Source of the DNA: an uncultured bacterium
GTDB lineage: Bacteria; Patescibacteriota; Minisyncoccia; Phycocordibacterales; UBA1006
Direction of reading: 5' to 3'
Length of the DNA stretch: 54,085 bases
Assembly: GCA_937868685.1 (NCBI GenBank)
Contig: CALMMZ010000232.1
Span: 1-54,085, forward strand
Below, piece after piece: positions 298 through 35,973 of the stretch (position 1 is the first letter of the stretch; every line of letters begins with the position of its first letter). A program made the translations under genes and the position numbers. Under the pieces are notes generated by a model. That model saw only the letters and a program-made list of their open reading frames with translations. It searched no databases and had not been told where the DNA came from.

Positions 298-1362
298 ATG
301 GCGACAGTCACAGTTACAGCACACCACAATTCTTCTTGGAAACAAAAGAATGGTAAGTGGGTAAAGACAGCTGAAAGACCTGAATACAAGAAAGACCTGA
401 AGGAATCTAGAAAAATCTCTAGTGATATTGGTAAGGCCTTTCTTAATAAGACAGCAAAGAAAAGTAAAAATTCCCATACAGATGGCAAGTCCCTTTATCT
501 TCATGGTCATGAAATTGCAAAGCATGGTGAAAATGGTGCAGTACATGGAACAATGGCTGGTTTGCCAACAAAGACAACCAAAGATAGATTGAATGCAATT
601 TCTAATGATCGTTTCCACACCAAAAAGGGCAAACACTATTATGGTGATAAGGAAATTGGTGAACGTGATTGGGTTCAGATCAAGGAAGCAATCAGAATCA
701 TGGTTGAAGGTGCTATCAAGGACCTGAAAACAAAAGACGAAGAAGAAAAGAGACTCCTAAAGACTGATAAACCTAAGAAGATTCTTACAGACAAAGAACG
801 TGGTCAGTCTAAAGCATTGCAGAAAAAAGACTTGAAGGAAGGTTTATTCTCTAAAAATAAGTCATTGAAACCAACAAAGACAGGTATCAAAAGAGCTCTA
901 CAGAAAGATGCAGAAGAAAATTCTGGTCCTTCAGGTGATGATTATCAACCCACAAAGAAGGGTATTAAGTTGATCAAAAGATTGACTAATGAAGGTGCAA
1001 TGCTAAGAGCTATAGGAAATAGAGTCAAAGCAAACCTAAGAGCTGATAAAGCACAAGCAAAAGATATGATTTTAAAAGCTGGTCCAAAGATTGGTGCGGC
1101 AGCTGAACGTGGTTTAGTTGGATTAGGTAGAGCTGGTCAAACCGCAATTAAGAAAACAATTTATCCTATAATGAAAAGAAATTTTCAGCGTGTGGATGAA
1201 GATCAAGAAACCGCTTCAAGATATAAAAAGGCCTTGGCAGATTCCAAAGGTTCAATTACACCAGAAGGTGAAAAACTAGTCACCGATAGAATTAAGAAAT
1301 TGGAAAAGAAAACAGTTTCCGAATCTTTTAGTCGCACACTGGACAAGATTACTGGCAGATAA
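298..1362 (+). CDS. hypothetical very basic Lys-rich protein (possible prohead core or internal head protein)
   Basis: 354-aa ORF with AGGAA just upstream of the ATG. Lys-rich with many L/I-x-E motifs. Lies directly upstream of the prohead protease gene. Confidence 0.7.
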   Translation: MATVTVTAHHNSSWKQKNGKWVKTAERPEYKKDLKESRKISSDIGKAFLNKTAKKSKNSHTDGKSLYLHGHEIAKHGENGAVHGTMAGLPTKTTKDRLNAISNDRFHTKKGKHYYGDKEIGERDWVQIKEAIRIMVEGAIKDLKTKDEEEKRLLKTDKPKKILTDKERGQSKALQKKDLKEGLFSKNKSLKPTKTGIKRALQKDAEENSGPSGDDYQPTKKGIKLIKRLTNEGAMLRAIGNRVKANLRADKAQAKDMILKAGPKIGAAAERGLVGLGRAGQTAIKKTIYPIMKRNFQRVDEDQETASRYKKALADSKGSITPEGEKLVTDRIKKLEKKTVSESFSRTLDKITGR

Positions 1363-1467
1363 AAGAATCGTATAGTAAAAAATATCAAGCGTCAAAATTC
1401 AATGGTGTCAACATCATTAAGTAAAGTCGCAACAAACAATAAAAGACTACAACAATTGGGCAAATAA

Positions 1468-2136
1468 ATGACACATATGTTCAAACTAATTAGAGAAGAT
1501 GTAACAGACGTACAGGTACTTGTAGAAGAAGACAAGAGTACCGGAAAGAAAAATTACTTTATTGAAGGCATTTTCATGCAGGCAGAACGTCAGAATAAAA
1601 ATGGACGTGTTTATCCTATGCGTGTGCTTCAAAATGAAGTCAATAGATATAACAACGAATATGTCCTAAAGAACCGTGCATTCGGCGAATTGGGACACCC
1701 AGATACACCTTCCATTAACCTTGATCGTGTATCTCATATGATTACTAGTCTAAGACCTGAAGGAAACAATTTCATTGGTAAGTCTAAGGTTCTAGACACT
1801 CCAATGGGAAATATAGTTAAAGGATTACTCGACGGTGGTGCATGTTTAGGAGTTTCTACTAGAGGCGTAGGGTCTCTGAAGGCTCATAACGGCTACCAAT
1901 TGGTTCAAGATGATTTTAAGTTGGCCACAGCGGCTGACATTGTTGCAGACCCATCAGCACCAGATGCTTTCGTTAATGGCATCATGGAAAACTATGACTG
2001 GTGGTTAGATAGTGCAACAGGTGAATGGCATAAGAGATATATTGAAGAAGCAAAGAAAGAGATTAAAGCAGCTAGTAAATCTGATATTGAACGTGTAGCT
2101 ATTAATCTGTTTGAACGATATGTCTCAAAGTTCTAA
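1468..2136 (+). CDS. gp21: prohead core protease (T4 gp21 family)
   Basis: 222 aa. FGELGHPD (candidate catalytic His) and LGVSTRGVGS (candidate Ser) spaced about 53 aa apart, as in T4 gp21. Position is immediately before the scaffold and major capsid genes. Confidence 0.85.
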   Translation: MTHMFKLIREDVTDVQVLVEEDKSTGKKNYFIEGIFMQAERQNKNGRVYPMRVLQNEVNRYNNEYVLKNRAFGELGHPDTPSINLDRVSHMITSLRPEGNNFIGKSKVLDTPMGNIVKGLLDGGACLGVSTRGVGSLKAHNGYQLVQDDFKLATAADIVADPSAPDAFVNGIMENYDWWLDSATGEWHKRYIEEAKKEIKAASKSDIERVAINLFERYVSKF

Positions 2137-9880: not shown

Positions 9881-10450
9881 ATGAGATATATTATTGCACT
9901 ATTAATTGTTATGATCACTACCAATGCATTTGCTGCCCAGGAAGCAGGATCCATAAATCTTCCAAATTACTGGAAGCTTATAAAGTACAACAAAGATAAT
10001 AGTAGTGAATTTTCACATTGTTCTATAATGAATGAATGGGTTCCATCAACGGAATATAATAAGAAAAGGATGCGAGCATCGGTTCTTCATTTTGCGTTGA
10101 AAGTATATAAAGGAAAGAGTATGGAATTGCTTTTGGGTGGTTCTGGTTGGGAATTAAATCCCGCTACAAAATATACAATCAAAACTATAACATCCGATGG
10201 ACAAAGTTGGGTCTTTGACCGGGTTACAGCAATAGATCAATCAATTCTATCTGCAATATTTACCCCTCAAGATGGTAAATGGTATTCATCCATGATGAGA
10301 TCAGATTCAGTTGAATTTCTCATAAATGGACAATCTATCGGACAATTTACACTTGAAGGATCACGCATTGCATTTTCGGAACTATTGAATTGTTGGTCTT
10401 CTAGTCTAGATACGCAGAAATTTGATCCTTCATTTGGAGGTAATAAGTGA
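9881..10450 (+). CDS. hypothetical secreted protein
   Basis: 189 aa. N-terminal signal peptide MRYIIALLIVMITTNAFAAQE. Confidence 0.65.
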   Translation: MRYIIALLIVMITTNAFAAQEAGSINLPNYWKLIKYNKDNSSEFSHCSIMNEWVPSTEYNKKRMRASVLHFALKVYKGKSMELLLGGSGWELNPATKYTIKTITSDGQSWVFDRVTAIDQSILSAIFTPQDGKWYSSMMRSDSVEFLINGQSIGQFTLEGSRIAFSELLNCWSSSLDTQKFDPSFGGNK

Positions 10451-14934: not shown

Positions 14935-16522
14935 ATTGATGGAAAGTCCTGTCAACAAAACCTTTGAGGAGATTTTGGTGATGGATGATGATTCATTTAC
15001 ACAATGGGTAATAGATTTACGTGAAACGGTGGTGGACCTTTGGGACAACGAAGGACTGCCACCCAAAGTTGGTTATAGCAAGGAAGAAATCATCGATAAC
15101 TTCAAAAAGATGATTGCATACCCAGTCAATGAAATTGAGATTGAGAAGGATGTTATTCGTAACACAACCATTCTTGGCAATGCAGTCAATGAGTGGTTTC
15201 CTACTATGATGAAGACCAAGATATCCTATAGCTCAAAGGGTAATGCAAAGTCAATTTATGACTATTTCAAGGAACCAGACCTTCTGGAAACATTCATAAC
15301 ATATGCAAAGAGACATTTTAAGAGAGATAGTTTCTATCACTATTCAAACCCAATTAGTGTTGGTGATGTATTAACATTTGGTCAAAAACCATATGTTGTG
15401 ACAACACCAGAAGAATTCCGTGATTGGTTTGAAAAAAATGGAATGAGAAACAAAAGTGAGTATGACTATTGGTTATGCCCAGTGAAGGAGAAGTCTGCTT
15501 ATTCGGGATACAATACTGATCTAAGCAAAAAGCAAAACTTGTTTGTTGATGGGGATTTTAAGGCACCTCGAAGATGCAAAACAAATGTTGATAAAACCCG
15601 TTCTAATAAATACTCGATTAGATTATATAAGAGGGGCCAGAAATTGTTCCCTATTGGGTTGAAGGCGTTTCGTGTGTCTTTCTGTCAGTATGCAGTTAAT
15701 TTTCCACCTCTAACAGCAAGGTACCTATATGAACGTTTTACTAAACATATACCAAAAAATTCACAGGTTTATATATATGACCCTTCAATGGGCTGGGGCG
15801 GTAGGTTGGTTGGTGCTTTGTCTAGCACCTTGGATCGGAATGTTTGCTATGTGGGGACTGACCCTAACACTGATCACAATATTTCGCACGGTGTCACTAA
15901 GTATCACCAGATTGGTGAATTCTTTAACAAGAATGTACGAATCAGTGGTTCTTTGTTTGGTAGACACCATAAGTTTGATATTTTCCAAGATGGGTCGGAA
16001 GTAATTTCTGAAAACCCAAAGTTTCAGAAATACAAAGGTAAACTGGACTTGGTGTTTACAAGTCCACCATATTTCAATAAGGAAGTTTATTCAGATGACG
16101 AGGAGCAATCCTGTCATAAGTTTGAGAATTATGAAGCGTGGAGAGACGGGTTTTTAAAACCAACTTTGGCCACATGTGTAGAATATCTTAAGCATGATCG
16201 TTATCTGTTATGGAACATTGCAAATATTGTCCTAGCAGGAAACATGCTTCCTCTTGAAGAGGATTCAAAAAAGATATTAGAAGACCTTGGGATGCAATAT
16301 GTCACAACTATCAAGATGACACTTGCTCAGATGCCAGGATCAAATCGATTGGAGGAAACAGGTGAAATTGAGTCTGTACGAATTAATACAGTCTTTGGTG
16401 AGATTACCAAAGAAGTCCCAGTTACAAAGGGACAGATGAAAAACTTTGTAAAGATTAAGGACAAAAAGAATAAAAACATGATGCTCAAATATGAGCCAAT
16501 TTTTTGTTACTACAAACCATAA
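14921..16522 (+). CDS. DNA methyltransferase (N6-adenine or N4-cytosine; motif I before motif IV) with large N-terminal extension
   Basis: 533 aa. SAM motif I-like IYDPSMGWGGRLVG, then catalytic motif IV FTSPPYF about 95 aa downstream. The N-terminal 270 aa or so are unassigned. Confidence 0.7.
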   Translation: MKNTKLMESPVNKTFEEILVMDDDSFTQWVIDLRETVVDLWDNEGLPPKVGYSKEEIIDNFKKMIAYPVNEIEIEKDVIRNTTILGNAVNEWFPTMMKTKISYSSKGNAKSIYDYFKEPDLLETFITYAKRHFKRDSFYHYSNPISVGDVLTFGQKPYVVTTPEEFRDWFEKNGMRNKSEYDYWLCPVKEKSAYSGYNTDLSKKQNLFVDGDFKAPRRCKTNVDKTRSNKYSIRLYKRGQKLFPIGLKAFRVSFCQYAVNFPPLTARYLYERFTKHIPKNSQVYIYDPSMGWGGRLVGALSSTLDRNVCYVGTDPNTDHNISHGVTKYHQIGEFFNKNVRISGSLFGRHHKFDIFQDGSEVISENPKFQKYKGKLDLVFTSPPYFNKEVYSDDEEQSCHKFENYEAWRDGFLKPTLATCVEYLKHDRYLLWNIANIVLAGNMLPLEEDSKKILEDLGMQYVTTIKMTLAQMPGSNRLEETGEIESVRINTVFGEITKEVPVTKGQMKNFVKIKDKKNKNMMLKYEPIFCYYKP

Positions 16523-32438: not shown

Positions 32439-33319
32439 GCAAGACTGCAATAATTGGTGGTGCTTCTGGCTACACCTGGAACGATTTGAAGTATTGGGTG
32501 AATTCTATTAGACAAACTGATTTTGATGGTGATATTGTTATTGTTACTGACAATATGACAGTTGAAACTCAGGACAAGTTACTTGAAAAGAATGTTCTTA
32601 TCCATGCATTTGGAAATAGAAATTCTGAAGGTAATGTAGTAAATCTAGAGAAGAATTTACCTCCCCATGTATCTAGGTTTTTCTACATTTGGGATTTTCT
32701 AAATCGAAATGAATATGATATAGTTACAGTAACAGATACTCGTGACGTTATCTTCCAAAGCAATCCAGATACCTATTTGAGATTCTTTTCACTCGGTAAT
32801 ATTGTTGGATCCAAAGAAGGATTGACTTATGAAAATGAACCTTGGGGTAAATCAAATCTCTTCCAGTCTTTTGGGCCATACTTCTATAATAGGATTAAGG
32901 ATAAGGAAATTTTGAATGTTGGTGTTATTGGTGGTGATGCAGCTTCCATTAAGGACCTAATGCTTTTAATTTTCCAGTTGAGTTTTAATAGACCAATTCC
33001 AATTGTAGACCAGGCAGTCTATAATTTCATTCGATATGAATTTGAAAAATCATTCCACTTTATGGATAACGAGAGTCCATGGGCAATTAATCTTGGTACC
33101 ACTATCGAGGCAGTAAAGGCGGGATATGGTGATCTTGGGCAAGCTTGCCGATATGATCATAAGTTACTTGAAAAGTACGAAAAAGATTACCTACTCATGC
33201 AACCAGTAATTAAAGGTGATACTGTGATGAATTCTGATGGTGGACAATATTATGTGGTGCATCAATACGATAGAGTACCAAAACTAAAAGATATGATCCA
33301 AATTAAGTATGGAGACTGA
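32435..33319 (+). CDS. hypothetical protein, possible nucleotide-diphospho-sugar transferase
   Basis: 294 aa within the glyco-island. VTVTDTRDVIFQSNP is a DxD-like acidic motif. This is a weak assignment. Confidence 0.35.
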   Translation: MSKTAIIGGASGYTWNDLKYWVNSIRQTDFDGDIVIVTDNMTVETQDKLLEKNVLIHAFGNRNSEGNVVNLEKNLPPHVSRFFYIWDFLNRNEYDIVTVTDTRDVIFQSNPDTYLRFFSLGNIVGSKEGLTYENEPWGKSNLFQSFGPYFYNRIKDKEILNVGVIGGDAASIKDLMLLIFQLSFNRPIPIVDQAVYNFIRYEFEKSFHFMDNESPWAINLGTTIEAVKAGYGDLGQACRYDHKLLEKYEKDYLLMQPVIKGDTVMNSDGGQYYVVHQYDRVPKLKDMIQIKYGD

Positions 33320-33320
33320 T

Positions 33321-33884
33321 ATGAATAATGACGTTGGTATGATGCTCAAAGACCCCGAGTTATATACCGTTAAAGAAAAGATGACTGTGCAAATGTGGCC
33401 ACCTTCAATCGATAATGTTGCTGATAGCATGATGCCATATGTCAATAGAATGGCAGCACCCGTCAGAATTCTCATTGTGGGAACATTCAATGGTGAAGCA
33501 GCATATCGTTTCCTAGAATTGGATGAAAAGAAAAAGATAGGTGAAATAGTTTCCTTAAGTATCACAGACGACGAAATCCCATTTAACATAACTGCGGAAA
33601 GAAACCTGCAAGGAAAGGACGTTGTTCTCGGAACAAGTATTCCCGAAACAGAGTTATTTGACCTGGTATTTGTAAATTCGGAAACTAAGATTCCACTTGA
33701 CAGTCTTTATGAAAAATACTATAATAACGTCAAAGTAGGTGGTATCATCTGTGGAAATGATCACCACAAAGAAAAGGTGCGGGAATATTTGGCAGTTTTT
33801 ATGAGGGAAAAGAAATTAGGACTATCCCTGAATATTTCCAATAGAACAGTGTGGTTTTTATATAAGCACGCAAGGAGAGGTTAG
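33321..33884 (+). CDS. class I SAM-dependent methyltransferase-like protein
   Basis: ILIVGTFNGEAAYRFLE is glycine-rich and motif I-like. DLVFVNSE and GGIICGNDH. The ATG at 33321 follows GGAGA. Confidence 0.5.
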   Translation: MNNDVGMMLKDPELYTVKEKMTVQMWPPSIDNVADSMMPYVNRMAAPVRILIVGTFNGEAAYRFLELDEKKKIGEIVSLSITDDEIPFNITAERNLQGKDVVLGTSIPETELFDLVFVNSETKIPLDSLYEKYYNNVKVGGIICGNDHHKEKVREYLAVFMREKKLGLSLNISNRTVWFLYKHARRG

Positions 33885-33885
33885 T

Positions 33886-34236
33886 ATGGAATTACCATTG
33901 ACAACAATCAATACATATCCTGTGGAACTTTTCAAAACAGACAAGATCAAAACATTGGTTGACAATAAAAGGTGTTTTATTATATTGGGAGAGCCCAGCA
34001 GCTCAAATCTTATCGATGTGGATAAGATTGTAGGTGTTGTAAATGAACTGAAAGAAGACAAAGAAGATTTAATCGTTGATTTTAATGTATTGAAAACTCC
34101 AATGGGAACATTGTTCCAAGCTTTGTTTGACAACAATGCAAAAATAGCATTGCGTCCTTGTGGTGTTGGGCAAGTCGATCTTAATAACAACGTAACTGAA
34201 TATACACTCAACTATTTTTGGATTGATGCAGCATGA
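33886..34236 (+). CDS. truncated, catalytically inactive paralog of prohead protease gp21
   Basis: KRCFIILGEPSSSN...VLKTPMGTLFQALFDNNAKIALRPCGVGQ aligns with gp21 NRAFGELGHPDTPS...VLDTPMGNIVKGLLDGGACLGVSTRGVGS. His is replaced by Glu and Ser by Arg. Confidence 0.7.
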   Translation: MELPLTTINTYPVELFKTDKIKTLVDNKRCFIILGEPSSSNLIDVDKIVGVVNELKEDKEDLIVDFNVLKTPMGTLFQALFDNNAKIALRPCGVGQVDLNNNVTEYTLNYFWIDAA

Positions 34237-34268
34237 AAACAGCGTTGGTATTAGGAGCAGGTGGATAA
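34233..34268 (+). pseudogene. orphan 5' stub of an SDR (epimerase) gene: MKTALVLGAGG*
   Basis: The ATG overlaps the stop of the upstream ORF (ATGA). The 11 codons match the N-terminus of the functional gene at 34948 (KTALVCGAGG) and stop exactly within the GxxGxxG motif. Confidence 0.7.
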
Positions 34269-34315: not shown

Positions 34316-34960
34316 ATGGAAAAAACCGGATTTATCTATATTTGGTATGATCGCAAACACAAAAAATACTATATCGGAAGTCATTTAGGGACAGAAGATG
34401 ATGGTTATGTTTGTTCATCTAGGTGGATGCGTCAATCTCACAAGCGCAGACCACAAGACTTTAAGAGAAGGATCCTTCAGAGAAATATCAGTAAAGAAGT
34501 GCTAAAAGAAGAAGAACATAAGTGGTTGAAGTTAATTAAAAATGATGAATTGGGTAAAAAATACTACAACTTAACCATTGCTTTGAACGGCAATGGTTGG
34601 GAAAAAGGAAAAGAACGATCTGAAAAAACAAAGAAGAAAGTTAGTGATGGTGTTAAACGTGCGTGGGAAGACGGTAGACTCAATAAAGAACTTTGTGGTA
34701 AAAAAGGAACTGTTCCCTGGAATAAAGGAAAAACTGGAATTTATTCTGAGGAAACTAAACAAAAACTTCGTGATGCAAGAAAGAAGCAAGTATTTTCTCT
34801 AGAAGCAATTGAAAAAAGAACATCTAAACTTCGGGGTAAGAAGCGAAGAAAAGAAGATATAGACAAGATGGTACAAACAAAAAAGGAACGCAGAGAAGCA
34901 GGACTTTATAAACCTGTGATTCCGTGGAACAAAGGATTGAAATTGAAATGTCAAAATTAA
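34316..34960 (+). CDS. GIY-YIG homing endonuclease with NUMOD3 repeats
   Basis: GFIYIWYDRKHKKYYIGSH gives GIY...YIG. PWNKGKTG and PWNKGLK are NUMOD3-like. Lys-rich. The 3' end overlaps the start of the epimerase gene by 13 nt. Confidence 0.9.
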   Translation: MEKTGFIYIWYDRKHKKYYIGSHLGTEDDGYVCSSRWMRQSHKRRPQDFKRRILQRNISKEVLKEEEHKWLKLIKNDELGKKYYNLTIALNGNGWEKGKERSEKTKKKVSDGVKRAWEDGRLNKELCGKKGTVPWNKGKTGIYSEETKQKLRDARKKQVFSLEAIEKRTSKLRGKKRRKEDIDKMVQTKKERREAGLYKPVIPWNKGLKLKCQN

Positions 34961-35973
34961 AGACCGCCCTGGTTTGTGGTGCTGGAGGATTTATAGGCAA
35001 CCACATGGTGAATAGGTTAGTCAAAGAAGGGTATTGGGTAAGAGCAGTAGACCTGAAGGAACCAGAATACTCAAAGACAAATGCAGATCATTTCATTATC
35101 AGAGATTTGCGTGATGCCAGAGAAGTAAGTGAGTTAATATCATATGCAGGTTGTCTAAGAAATCCTAACCAGTTATTTTCAAGAGAATTTGATAAGGGGT
35201 TTGATGAAATCTATCAATTTGCAGCAGATATGGGTGGTGCTGGATTTGTATTCACAAAAGAGCATGATGCAGAAATCATGCATAACTCTGCCACAATCAA
35301 TCTGAATGTCCTTGATGCATTGAGCAAAAGAAAAGATGGTCATAAGACTAAGATTTTCTATTCATCTTCTGCTTGCATCTATCCAGAATACAATCAATTG
35401 AATCCAGACAATCCAAAATGCGATGAAGCAAGTGCATATCCTGCAATGCCTGATAGTGAATATGGTTGGGAAAAACTCTTTAGTGAAAGACTATATGATG
35501 CATATCGTAGAAATTATCACCTTCAGACATATGTTGCTAGGTTTCATAATATCTATGGACCCTTGGGAACATGGCAAGGTGGTAGAGAAAAATCACCAGC
35601 AGCAATTTGCAGAAAAGTAATCAAGGCAACAGATCAAATTGAAGTATGGGGTGATGGTAAGCAAACTCGATCATTCCTGTATATCGATGATTGCATTGAT
35701 GCAGTTAGATTACTTATTAATTCCAATTTCAGAGGACCAGTAAATATTGGTTCAGAAGAAATGGTAACTATCAATGAATTGGTTAATACTGTCAAGTCCA
35801 TTGCAGGTAAGAATGATCTAAAGGTTGTTCATGTTGAAGGACCTCAGGGTGTCAGAGGAAGAAACTCTGACAACGAATTGATTGAAGCAAAGTTGGATTG
35901 GCATCCAAATGTATGTCTCTATGATGGTTTGAAAAGAACCTATAAGTGGATTGAGGAACAGGTTAATGGATAA
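34948..35973 (+). CDS. GDP-mannose 3,5-epimerase-like SDR
   Basis: GAGGFIGNH. SSSACIYPEYNQL, YGWEKL, RFHNIYGPLGTWQGGREKSPAAICRK, WGDGKQTRSF and GVRGRNSDNELI closely parallel plant and bacterial GME as I recall it. Confidence 0.8.
   Translation: MSKLKTALVCGAGGFIGNHMVNRLVKEGYWVRAVDLKEPEYSKTNADHFIIRDLRDAREVSELISYAGCLRNPNQLFSREFDKGFDEIYQFAADMGGAGFVFTKEHDAEIMHNSATINLNVLDALSKRKDGHKTKIFYSSSACIYPEYNQLNPDNPKCDEASAYPAMPDSEYGWEKLFSERLYDAYRRNYHLQTYVARFHNIYGPLGTWQGGREKSPAAICRKVIKATDQIEVWGDGKQTRSFLYIDDCIDAVRLLINSNFRGPVNIGSEEMVTINELVNTVKSIAGKNDLKVVHVEGPQGVRGRNSDNELIEAKLDWHPNVCLYDGLKRTYKWIEEQVNG

What the first reader, a model, noticed from the sequence alone, without database searches (positions are those of the whole stretch)
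33886..34236. Catalytically dead, truncated paralog of the prohead protease gp21 embedded in the glycosylation island
- The 116-aa ORF aligns almost without gaps to residues about 40-150 of the window's own gp21 (1468..2136).
- YP..., KRCFIILGEPSSS aligns with NRAFGELGHPDTP. VLKTPMG aligns with VLDTPMG. FDNNAKIALRPCGVG aligns with LDGGACLGVSTRGVG.
- The positions matching the candidate catalytic His (GHP) and Ser (GVSTRG) of gp21 are Glu36 and Arg90. The spacing is preserved (54 vs 53 residues).
- It lacks the N-terminal and C-terminal parts of gp21.
- A pseudo-protease keeping only the substrate- or core-binding body could act as a regulator or decoy of prohead maturation, or as a head-targeting module. 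I am not aware of such a gp21 pseudoenzyme being described.
Basis: seen in the sequence. Interest (0 to 1): 0.7.

Follow-up and report, generated by a model that had tools for sequence, protein, structure and literature searches.

The report
Dead mini-copy of phage head protease
A marine T4-like phage carries a small extra gene that keeps the folded core of its own head-maturation protease but has lost all its catalytic residues; it belongs to a widespread, unnamed family of such mini-proteins whose job is still unknown.

Summary
ORF 33886..34236 (116 aa) is homologous to the window's gp21 prohead protease (1468..2136): BLASTP E 7e-11, z = 14.5 against shuffles, profile-profile probability 98.9%. 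Its AlphaFold model (pLDDT 96.6) matches T4 gp21 (5JBL) best. It has Glu36 and Arg90 where gp21 has the catalytic His and Ser, contains no histidine, and lacks both gp21 termini.

It is not a one-off duplicate. An exhaustive search found about 50 diverged clusters of 110-155-aa proteins of the same kind. The three catalytic-triad columns are almost entirely lost across them. No Pfam, PHROG or NCBIfam model covers them.

The gene is under purifying selection (dN/dS 0.18) but is the fastest-evolving gene of its sugar-modification island. It keeps the same slot in four diverged lineages and is absent from nine otherwise equivalent islands, so it is accessory. A consensus sigma-70-type promoter lies 160 nt upstream.

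Short prohead-protease paralogs were already reported in phiKZ-like giant phages (Ali et al. 2017), so the kind is not unprecedented.

Function is inferred only. It is most likely a binding-only mimic of the gp21 core. A head-targeting role and a role in sugar chemistry are both disfavoured.

The parts
33886..34236 (+). Gene for the 116-aa mini gp21-like protein: the non-catalytic core of the prohead protease fold. It has no histidine and a pI of 4.5.
   Evidence: ORF. Homology to gp21. AF2 pLDDT 96.6, with the best PDB match 5JBL at probability 1.0 and TM 0.73. dN/dS 0.18 against the 75%-identical ortholog in L001. Composition.
33991..33993 (+). Codon for Glu36, at the position of the catalytic His (gp21 H77, T4 H85).
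   Evidence: The ortholog P0002 has Gln here. Across the 50 short family members this column holds His in only 2.
34153..34155 (+). Codon for Arg90, at the position of the catalytic Ser (gp21 S130, T4 S140). It is followed by Pro91, which is invariant in the close subfamily.
   Evidence: This column is Arg in 18 and Ser in 7 of the 50 short members.
33697..33725 (+). Perfect sigma-70-type promoter, TTGACA-17 nt-TATAAT, inside the upstream gene and 160 nt before the mini start codon.
   Evidence: The window has 6 perfect and 7 11/12 sites on the + strand, which carries the gene array examined here, and none on the - strand. The site is conserved at homologous codons in L001 and L010 (12/12) and L020 (11/12), and is lost in L018. 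It is present in 1 of 5 islands that have the upstream gene but no mini.
33872..33880 (+). Shine-Dalgarno sequence AAGGAGAGG, 5 nt upstream of the ATG.
   Evidence: Read from the sequence.
1468..2136 (+). The phage's genuine prohead protease gp21 (222 aa), with H77, S130 and D157 intact. The mini resembles the core of this protein.
   Evidence: Pfam PF03420 at 4e-39 and phrog_207 at 1.7e-79. Match to 5JBL at 4e-26. Invariant columns.
33309..33884 (+). Upstream island gene p191, a putative methyltransferase-like protein. Its stop lies 2 nt before the mini start, and it hosts the promoter.
   Evidence: Weak NCBIfam methyltransferase hit. Synteny.
34948..35973 (+). Downstream island gene, an NAD-dependent sugar epimerase/dehydratase. 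In relatives it directly abuts the mini.
   Evidence: Pfam PF01370 at 2e-37. Junctions in L001, L010, L018 and L020.

Best explanation
Identity (shown). The gene encodes a free-standing, stably folded copy of the beta-barrel core of the T4-type prohead protease (MEROPS S77, gp21). It has lost the catalytic His, the catalytic Ser, the third invariant Asp and the neighbouring invariant Glu and Arg. It also lacks gp21's N-terminal segment and C-terminal helical region. It belongs to an unannotated family of 110-155-aa 'mini-gp21' proteins of large myoviruses. It is a maintained but dispensable accessory gene.

Mechanism (inferred). It cannot cleave peptide bonds, and its old substrate cleft is not conserved. 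It therefore most likely works by protein-protein binding through the non-catalytic surfaces it shares with gp21. My committed guess is that it acts as a structural mimic of the gp21 subunit. Transcription from a host-type (early) promoter would put it in the cell before gp21 is made. There it would co-assemble or compete with gp21 for a partner: gp21 itself, which is a pentamer in T4, or whatever docks on the gp21 core. This would temper or delay free protease outside the prohead.

I put the identity part at about 0.95 and the specific 'gp21-mimic acting on the phage's own protease pathway' mechanism at about 0.3. The confidence value given for this entry (0.3) refers to the mechanism.
For: Homology and fold:
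- BLASTP E 7e-11 and z = 14.5 against shuffles.
- An HMM built only from short family members hits the window's gp21 at 1.3e-30 and T4 gp21 at 3e-9.
- hhalign of the short family against true gp21s gives probability 98.9%, E 2.4e-17, over 103 columns.
- The AF2 model has pLDDT 96.6 and pTM 0.88. The Foldseek top PDB hit is T4 gp21 5JBL at probability 1.0 and TM 0.73.
- 36 of 51 aligned sequences (50 short members plus the window's gp21) hit phrog_207, head maturation protease.

Loss of catalysis:
- The mini has E36 and R90 at the His and Ser positions, and no His anywhere in the protein.
- Across 50 short members the gp21 residue is kept as follows: H77 4%, S130 14%, E74 14%, R132 16%, D157 0%.
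- Structural invariants are kept: Y49 92%, T111 80%, G114 80%, G133 90%, G135 98%.

A real, maintained gene:
- dN/dS is 0.18.
- Intact orthologs sit in the same slot in L001, L018 and L020, although identity falls to 27-31%.

Accessory and separately expressed:
- It is absent from nine equivalent islands.
- A conserved consensus sigma-70 promoter lies upstream. A late-promoter-like ATAAATA precedes the scaffold gene but not the mini.

Link to the protease system:
- In every complete genome examined, the mini co-occurs with a full-length gp21-type protease: the window, and Eneladusvirus with two places per genome.
- An analogous pairing exists in phiKZ-like phages.

Precedents in T4:
- gp21 is a pentamer.
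- Gene 21 makes a second, shorter product.
- T4 encodes a protease inhibitor, Inh.
Against: - No interaction was tested, and no expression or proteomic data exist for this protein.
- The gene is not in the head module. It is dispensable among close relatives.
- It evolves faster than every neighbour: 75% identity against 85-91%, and about 30% against 44-72%. That would be odd for a partner of the highly conserved gp21 and is more typical of host-interaction genes.
- I could not establish which gp21 surfaces make the pentamer, because the structure paper is not held. Whether the mini retains an oligomerisation interface is therefore unknown.
- The promoter evidence is a consensus match plus strand asymmetry, not a measurement. 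L018 lacks the promoter.
Confidence: 0.3

Rival explanations
1. Immune decoy or shield. The early-made dead protease look-alike interferes with host defences that detect the prohead protease. It might occupy a sensor that recognises gp21, or keep free gp21 away from protease-sensitive bait loops such as the CBASS CD-NTase activation loop.
For: The gene has the profile of an anti-defence gene:
- accessory and patchy distribution;
- the fastest-evolving gene in its neighbourhood;
- its own early-type promoter;
- family members sit among small accessory genes, next to NADAR, NUDIX, Sir2, PhoH and RNA ligase genes.

A 2026 preprint reports that host CBASS is activated by T4 gp21 proteolytic activity (PMC12991175).
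Against: - CBASS sensing depends on cleavage of a disordered loop, not on recognition of the gp21 fold.
- The mini's former substrate cleft is unconserved, so it is a poor candidate to mask such loops.
- There are no hits in PADLOC.
- The host, and whether it has any defence systems, are unknown.
- There is no experimental link at all.
Confidence: 0.15
2. Exapted small beta-barrel with a function unrelated to head maturation or to gp21. The protease ancestry would be only historical.
For: The catalytic cleft is free to vary. Gene contexts differ widely across the family. The protein is confidently predicted to fold as a compact stand-alone domain.
Against: In every complete genome examined it co-occurs with a full-length gp21-type protease. 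The same short-paralog architecture arose, or persisted, beside the S80 proteases of phiKZ-like phages. That recurrence points to a link with the protease system. No alternative activity is suggested by any library.
Confidence: 0.27
3. Component of the sugar-modification pathway, for example an adaptor or acceptor for the island's glycosyltransferases.
For: It occupies the same slot, between p191 and the epimerase, in four diverged lineages of the island. In L010 its stop overlaps the epimerase start as ATGA.
Against: - Nine IMG/VR loci carry the same island (GT2, p294, epimerase and FucT, with FkbM detected in six) with the epimerase abutting p191 (5 loci) or p294 (4 loci) and no mini.
- Other family members lie in unrelated contexts.
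- The sugar island of cyanophage S-CAM9 has no mini.
- The p191/epimerase junction is an insertion hot spot: a homing endonuclease in the window, and two small ORFs in L020.
Confidence: 0.05
4. Decaying, non-functional remnant of a gp21 duplication.
For: It has lost all catalytic residues and both termini. L010 carries a 15-nt in-frame deletion in the last conserved strand. It is absent from many related islands.
Against: - dN/dS is 0.18 with dS 0.83.
- Reading frames of the same length are intact in lineages only 27-31% identical.
- About 50 diverged clusters share the same boundaries.
- The fold prediction is very confident.
- A strong ribosome-binding site is present.
Confidence: 0.03
5. 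Still an active protease that uses non-canonical residues.
For: Two short family members, P0032 and P0042, keep both His and Ser. Cys92 lies two residues after the former Ser position.
Against: This protein has no histidine at all. The His, Ser and Asp columns are all replaced. No alternative nucleophile or base is conserved in the subfamily. Pro91 follows the former nucleophile position.
Confidence: 0.02

Closest known systems
T4 gp21 prohead (capsid assembly) protease: MEROPS S77, Pfam PF03420, PDB 5JBL
   Same: The mini has the same fold as the gp21 core (Foldseek probability 1.0, TM 0.73). Sequence homology is clear at profile level. Shared structural motifs are Y-P, L-x-T-P-x-G and G-x-G.
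   Different: The catalytic His, Ser and Asp and the invariant Glu and Arg are lost. The N-terminal segment and the whole C-terminal region are missing. It is encoded outside the portal-protease-scaffold-capsid module, behind an early-type promoter. It does not reach any Pfam S77 score.
Short diverged paralogs of the prohead protease in phiKZ-like giant phages: SPN3US gp117, 201phi2-1 gp206 (145 aa), PhiPA3 gp143 (Ali et al. 2017, PMC5694885)
   Same: Like the mini, each is a 125-145-aa protein that resembles the core of the phage's own prohead protease. Each lacks the protease's C-terminal part, is encoded away from the protease gene and coexists with the full-length enzyme. Function is unknown. 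There is a fold-level match to 201phi2-1 B3FJ68 in BFVD (E 1.3e-4, TM 0.66).
   Different: They derive from the S80 (phiKZ gp175-type) branch. hhalign finds no sequence-level relation to this family (probability below 2%). For gp117 the authors aligned a retained Ser and Asp, so it was not described as catalytically dead. The hosts and phage groups differ.
Yersinia phage fHe-Yen9-04 g109 and its Eneladusvirus homologs (annotated as hypothetical protein)
   Same: It belongs to the same sequence family: 38.7% identity to the family consensus over 94% of its length. It is 144 aa and is encoded far from the genuine gp21. In Serratia phage BF, of the same genus, gp21 lies in the portal-gp21-scaffold-capsid module. 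The catalytic His is lost.
   Different: It keeps the Ser motif LSSRGYG and the N-terminal 'NLNGRIY' strand, and has a longer C-terminus. It comes from a jumbo phage of enterobacteria. Its neighbours are PhoH and Sir2 genes, not sugar genes.
T4 short gene-21 product (internal initiation) and T4 Inh (protease inhibitor)
   Same: Both are precedents for modulating gp21 with a second protein, either gp21-derived or gp21-directed. The mini's N-terminus aligns within a few residues of the conserved internal Met (T4 M45, window gp21 M37).
   Different: The T4 short form comes from the same gene and keeps the catalytic residues and the C-terminus. Inh is unrelated in sequence and is a head protein. 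No relation to the mini was tested beyond alignment.
Herpesvirus assemblin (MEROPS S21)
   Same: The fold is distantly related. HCMV, EBV and KSHV proteases appear among the weak Foldseek hits (probability up to 0.6, TM 0.38-0.48).
   Different: The similarity is far weaker than to gp21. These are active His-Ser-His enzymes of about 230 residues. This is not a membership candidate.

Membership tests
Peptidase S77 / T4 gp21 prohead protease (PF03420) | Sequence match to the family model at the curated threshold | tested here: not met
   Pfam reports no family for the mini even at E <= 1. phrog_207 matches only at E 0.004. Homology is clear only at profile level: 98.9% by hhalign and 1.3e-30 for the short-family HMM against gp21.
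Peptidase S77 / T4 gp21 prohead protease (PF03420) | gp21 core fold | tested here: met
   The AF2 model has pLDDT 96.6. The best PDB match is 5JBL chains A, B and C, at probability 1.0, TM 0.73 and E 2e-4.
Peptidase S77 / T4 gp21 prohead protease (PF03420) | Catalytic His (T4 H85) | tested here: not met
   The mini has Glu36 here, and the protein contains no His at all. The ortholog has Gln.
Peptidase S77 / T4 gp21 prohead protease (PF03420) | Catalytic Ser (T4 S140, in the G-V-S-x-R-G motif) | tested here: not met
   The mini has Arg90-Pro91-Cys92 in place of Ser-Thr-Arg.
Peptidase S77 / T4 gp21 prohead protease (PF03420) | Third invariant acidic residue (T4 D168, window gp21 D157) | tested here: not met
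   The aligned column is Ile113 in the mini, and is never Asp and mostly hydrophobic in the 50 short members. Asp114 is one column off and is not conserved. The alignment is ambiguous by one residue in this strand.
Peptidase S77 / T4 gp21 prohead protease (PF03420) | C-terminal region, and a gene position within the portal-protease-scaffold-capsid module | tested here: not met
   The mini ends at about gp21 residue 160. The gene lies 32 kb from the head module, inside a sugar island.
Short prohead-protease paralogs of giant phages (Ali et al. 2017) | A short (about 125-145 aa) protease-core-like protein that coexists with a full-length prohead protease, lacks its C-terminal part and is encoded elsewhere in the genome | tested here: met
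   The mini is 116 aa, and gp21 is present at 1468..2136. The C-terminus is absent.
Short prohead-protease paralogs of giant phages (Ali et al. 2017) | Detectable sequence relationship to SPN3US gp117 / 201phi2-1 gp206 | tested here: not met
   hhalign of gp206 and gp210 against the mini subfamily gives probabilities of 0.5% and 1.9%. Only a fold-level match is seen in BFVD. The queries were single sequences, so sensitivity was limited.
Mini-gp21 family (defined here from the exhaustive search) | 110-155 aa, spanning the gp21 core and ending just after the strand with the D-Y-x-L motif; structural motifs kept (Y, T-P-x-G, G-x-G); catalytic triad columns lost | tested here: met
   The window protein scores 2e-42 against the family HMM, of which it is itself a member.
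Phage tail tube / Hcp fold (reported to be related to the gp21 barrel) | Structural match to tail-tube or Hcp proteins | tested here: not met
   No tail-tube or Hcp entry appears among the 50 best PDB matches. The reported relationship was known to me only from the title of Fokine & Rossmann 2016 as cited. That paper could not be read.

The most novel reading that the evidence does not exclude
Mini-gp21 proteins could be a widespread class of phage counter-defence pseudoenzymes. On this reading they are dead copies of the prohead protease, made early, that blunt host immune systems triggered by prohead-protease activity or presence, such as protease-sensing CBASS CD-NTases. They would do so either by sequestering free gp21 until it is inside the prohead or by occupying the sensor.
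Probability: 0.12. Interest if true: 0.85.

Novelty: new variant of a known kind. Interest (0 to 1): 0.5.

Why it matters
Pseudoenzymes derived from a virus's own maturation protease are almost unstudied. The only report I found is one section of a 2017 paper on phiKZ-like giant phages, and it assigns no function.

This work shows that the T4-type (S77) protease has also spawned a large, diverse and completely unannotated family of catalytically dead mini-copies in uncultured marine T4-like phages and in Eneladusvirus jumbo phages. These genes are kept under purifying selection yet are gained and lost like accessory genes.

The result gives annotators a name for about 50 clusters of hypothetical proteins. 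It also gives experimentalists a small, well-folding 13-kDa protein with which to ask how prohead protease activity is controlled outside the capsid. That question became more pressing with the 2026 preprint reporting that bacterial immunity senses this protease. If the protein only tunes head maturation, the finding is of specialist interest.

Tried and rejected
- **T4 gp68.** I tested whether the family equals the 141-aa T4 prohead core protein gp68, encoded next to gene 21. It does not: BLASTP E 3.2 and hhalign probability 0.3%.
- **Locus searches.** The search for related loci with the family alignments failed because no stretch is conserved enough. Single-protein scans of IMG/VR with P0003, P0007 and P0014, and of JGI metagenomes with the mini, found nothing new. 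Only L010 was recovered.
- **Cultured phages.** tblastn of the mini and of P0060 against 50,697 phage records hit only full-length gp21 genes. The family consensus found second loci only in Eneladusvirus and in one 595-kb uncultured phage. It found none in any cyanophage.
- **Other libraries.** NCBIfam and PADLOC gave no hits for five family members.
- **gp21 model.** An AF2 model of the window's gp21, built from a shallow alignment, was only moderately confident (pLDDT 66.9). I used it only to list the extra secondary-structure elements.
- **Structure paper.** Fokine & Rossmann 2016 on the T4 gp21 structure is not held. I therefore could not map the pentamer interface onto the mini.
- **Literature.** Searches for an inactive or pseudo prohead protease returned nothing beyond Ali et al. 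2017.
- **Sugar-pathway role.** I considered that the mini is an integral part of the sugar pathway and rejected it after finding nine mini-less islands.
- **L/I-x-E motifs.** The protein contains L/I-x-E motifs, for example L55-K-E57. I did not pursue them as pseudo-substrate sites because about one such motif is expected by chance in 116 residues.
Full report
**1. The observation**

ORF 33886..34236 (+, ATG, 116 aa) is present as described. The window's gp21 is 1468..2136 (222 aa). It matches Pfam Peptidase_S77 at 4e-39 and phrog_207 at 1.7e-79.

The two proteins align as follows:
- BLASTP gives 43.5 bits, E 7e-11, 22/73 identities and one gap.
- The Smith-Waterman score is 96. Across 2000 shuffles of the mini the mean was 28.7, sd 4.6 and maximum 55, so z = 14.5. 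The alignment spans mini 11-101 against gp21 49-141.

The window's gp21 H77 and S130 correspond to T4 H85 and S140. The crystallised inactive T4 protease 5JBL carries Ala at exactly those two positions. The mini has Glu36 and Arg90 there, with spacing 54 against 53. The whole protein contains no histidine.

**2. Homology and fold beyond the pairwise match**

- Pfam gives no hit for the mini itself, and PHROGs only a weak one.
- An HMM built only from short family members hits the window's gp21 at 1.3e-30 and T4 gp21 at 3e-9.
- hhalign of a short-only alignment against 16 true gp21s gives probability 98.9%, E 2.4e-17, over 103 columns.
- AlphaFold2 with the family alignment gives pLDDT 96.6 and pTM 0.88. 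The model is a compact strand-and-helix domain.
- Foldseek against the PDB puts T4 gp21 (5JBL, three chains) first at probability 1.0, TM 0.73 and E 2e-4. Everything else is far weaker, with herpesvirus proteases at TM 0.38-0.48.

**3. It is a family, not a lone duplicate**

The word-indexed search found only two close homologs: P0001 at 98% and P0002 at 75% identity. The exhaustive HMMER search of 1.84 billion cluster representatives found 59 proteins at E <= 1e-3. Nearly all are 111-155 aa.

In an alignment of 50 short members plus gp21, the structural invariants of gp21 are retained:

| gp21 residue | Retained in short members |
|---|---|
| Y49 | 92% |
| T111 | 80% |
| G114 | 80% |
| G133 | 90% |
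| G135 | 98% |

The active-site invariants are not retained:

| gp21 residue | Retained in short members | Note |
|---|---|---|
| E74 | 14% | |
| H77 | 4% | 18 different residues plus gaps occupy this column |
| S130 | 14% | Arg in 18 of 50 |
| R132 | 16% | |
| D157 | 0% | mostly hydrophobic, never Asp |

All members stop a few residues after the strand that carries D157 in gp21. They therefore lack the 'PSAPDA' segment and the C-terminal helices.

36 of 51 aligned sequences (50 short members plus the window's gp21) hit phrog_207 and 18 hit PF03420. No Pfam, PHROG or NCBIfam model is dedicated to the family.

Because the former cleft is the most variable part of the protein, a substrate-trap function is unlikely. 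Whatever is selected lies elsewhere on the surface. This is an inference.

**4. Is the gene alive?**

Yes. Against the ortholog in L001 (75% aa identity), dN/dS is 0.18 with dS 0.83. The six neighbouring genes range from 0.05 to 0.16.

Orthologs of the same length occupy the same slot (p~180 aa, mini, epimerase, fucosyltransferase) in L018 (P0014) and L020 (P0020). There the mini is only 31% and 27% identical, while the flanking genes are 44-72% identical. The mini is thus the fastest-evolving gene of the island, but it is constrained.

**5. Is it part of the sugar pathway?**

The neighbours are sugar-modification genes: a 2OG-Fe oxygenase, GT2, an FkbM methyltransferase, two NAD-dependent epimerase/dehydratases and a GT10 fucosyltransferase.

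I searched IMG/VR with the epimerase and scanned the 80 recovered loci with the family HMM and the island proteins. Nine loci (L026-L034) carry the same island without any mini. In five of them the epimerase abuts p191, and in four it abuts p294.

Other family members lie in unrelated settings:
- among NADAR, YqeY and NUDIX genes and small ORFs (L011);
- after an RNA ligase gene (L014);
- among small ORFs (L021, L022);
- directly upstream of a Gp23-family gene (L023);
- between PhoH and hypothetical genes in Yersinia jumbo phage fHe-Yen9-04.

The sugar island of cyanophage S-CAM9 has no mini. The mini is therefore an accessory cassette at an insertion-prone junction, not a pathway component.

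**6. Expression signals**

A perfect TTGACA-17-TATAAT promoter lies at 33697..33725, inside p191 and 160 nt upstream of the start.

The window has 6 perfect and 7 11/12 sites on the + strand, which carries the gene array examined here, and none on the - strand. These are therefore very likely real host-type promoters, which in T4-like phages are the early class.

The site is conserved at homologous codons in L001 and L010 (12/12). In L020 it scores 11/12, although the encoded peptide has diverged. It is lost in L018. Among five islands that have p191 but no mini, only one has it. That association is suggestive, but the numbers are small.

A late-promoter-like ATAAATA precedes the scaffold gene and follows the capsid gene, but does not precede the mini. 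Early expression is thus inferred, not shown.

**7. What is known**

T4 gp21 is a pentameric, starfish-shaped serine protease that cleaves after L/I-x-E. Its N-terminal segment blocks the active site in the pre-active form. Its termini are suspected to target it to the prohead core. Gene 21 also makes a shorter internal-start product.

Ali et al. 2017 (PMC5694885, section 17) reported what they called an unprecedented, diverged, C-terminally truncated paralog of the prohead protease in phiKZ-like giant phages. Examples are SPN3US gp117, 201phi2-1 gp206 (145 aa), PhiPA3 gp143 and several Erwinia phages. Its function is unknown.

My Foldseek search of BFVD recovers 201phi2-1 B3FJ68 (145 aa). It also recovers similar short uncharacterised proteins from Phabio, Psa21, Joad, Miami and fHe-Yen9-04.

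RefSeq now names 201phi2-1 gp206 and gp210 'head maturation protease'. Unlike their neighbours, they carry no note of detection in virions by mass spectrometry.

At sequence level gp206 and gp210 are unrelated to the present family (hhalign probability below 2%). The S77-derived minis described here are therefore a distinct family with the same architecture.

Among 50,697 deposited phage genomes, the family consensus finds a second locus only in Eneladusvirus jumbo phages and one 595-kb uncultured phage. It finds none in the roughly 460 cyanophage records that it matched.

**8. The phage**

The major capsid protein is at most 65% identical to those of Pelagibacter phage Mosig, Methylophilales phage Melnitz and cyanomyoviruses. 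GC content is about 37-38%. This is an uncultured marine T4-like myovirus of unknown host.

**9. Mechanism**

Shown:
- The protein is a folded gp21 core without the catalytic machinery or the termini.
- It is selected, accessory and fast-evolving.
- It coexists with a genuine gp21.

Inferred: it acts by binding, through surfaces other than the old cleft. My committed guess, at about 0.3, is a gp21 mimic that co-assembles or competes with gp21 for a partner and so tempers free protease before it enters the prohead.

Rivals:

| Rival explanation | Probability |
|---|---|
| Unrelated exaptation of the barrel | ~0.27 |
| Decoy against protease-sensing immunity (topical given PMC12991175, but without direct support) | ~0.15 |
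| Sugar-pathway component (largely refuted) | ~0.05 |
| Decaying remnant | ~0.03 |
| Cryptic active protease | ~0.02 |

A head-targeting role is disfavoured by the missing termini, the gene's position, the promoter and the virion data on the giant-phage analogues.

**10. Verdict**

It is too narrow in treating the gene as a lone duplicate rather than a family. It is not fully novel, because there is giant-phage precedent.

I classify it as a new variant of a known kind, with interest 0.5.

Noticed in passing
window 34233..34268, 34316..34960, 34948..35973: A GIY-YIG/NUMOD3-type homing endonuclease ORF (214 aa) has been inserted into the 5' end of the epimerase gene. An 11-codon remnant, 'MKTALVLGAGG*', still overlaps the mini's stop codon (ATGA), as the intact gene does in L010. 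The epimerase restarts at ATG 34948 ('MSKLKTALVCGAGGFIGNH') with synonymously recoded codons. This looks like co-conversion that destroys the endonuclease target.
   Followed up: partly
window 6236, 9623, 11440, 33697, 43556, 47565 (perfect); 9721, 25939, 28522, 33959, 37983, 49668, 52031 (11/12): There are thirteen consensus or near-consensus sigma-70 promoters on the + strand and none on the - strand. Several lie inside coding sequences just upstream of the next gene. The 11/12 site at 33959 lies inside the mini gene and precedes the homing endonuclease.
   Followed up: partly
L010 about 10290..10333 (IMGVR_UViG_3300009868_000339): The 95%-identical copy of the mini carries a 15-nt in-frame deletion. 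It removes five residues of the conserved last strand, changing NVTEYTLNYFWIDAA to NVTDFWIDAA and deleting the nearly invariant Tyr. It may be a degenerating allele.
   Followed up: no
L023 457..846 and 851..1918: A family member (P0082, 129 aa, with neither His nor Ser) sits directly upstream of a 355-aa Gp23-family capsid-like gene. This is the only context seen next to a head gene. The contig is only 2.5 kb.
   Followed up: no
L018 15373..17727: The homolog of the island's sugar C-methyltransferase is interrupted by an intein with a LAGLIDADG endonuclease domain. L018 also has a GIY-YIG gene upstream of GT2. The island appears to be a hot spot for selfish elements.
   Followed up: no
P0006, P0027, P0033, P0043 (868-2140 aa): Large Ser/Thr-rich repeat proteins match only the mini's last 25 residues, in 4-12 tandem repeats. 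The repeat 'VDLGNNVTEYVVISYW' resembles the mini's 'VDLNNNVTEYTLNYFW', and P0006 scores E 3e-8. This is probably a convergent beta-hairpin motif in a eukaryote-like cell-wall protein. The match is unexplained.
   Followed up: no
L024 13214..13651 and 15091..15468 (Pseudomonas phage 201phi2-1 gp206, gp210): Two short proteins (145 and 125 aa) are both named 'head maturation protease' in RefSeq, separately from the real protease gp268. Unlike their neighbours, neither has the 'identified as virion protein by mass spectrometry' note.
   Followed up: partly
P0032, P0042 (142 and 146 aa): Two short family members retain both the GELDHP/EADHP His motif and the LSPRG Ser motif, although they lack the C-terminal region. 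They could be intermediates or minimal active proteases.
   Followed up: no
window 298..1362: A 354-aa, very Lys-rich ORF lies immediately upstream of gp21, at the position where T4 has the small prohead core genes 67 and 68. It may be a core or internal head protein.
   Followed up: no
window 33858..34211 (- strand): A 117-aa TTG-start ORF lies antisense to the mini gene. It is probably a shadow ORF. I did not look for homologs, and the + strand frame is the one with homologs and dN/dS below 1.
   Followed up: no
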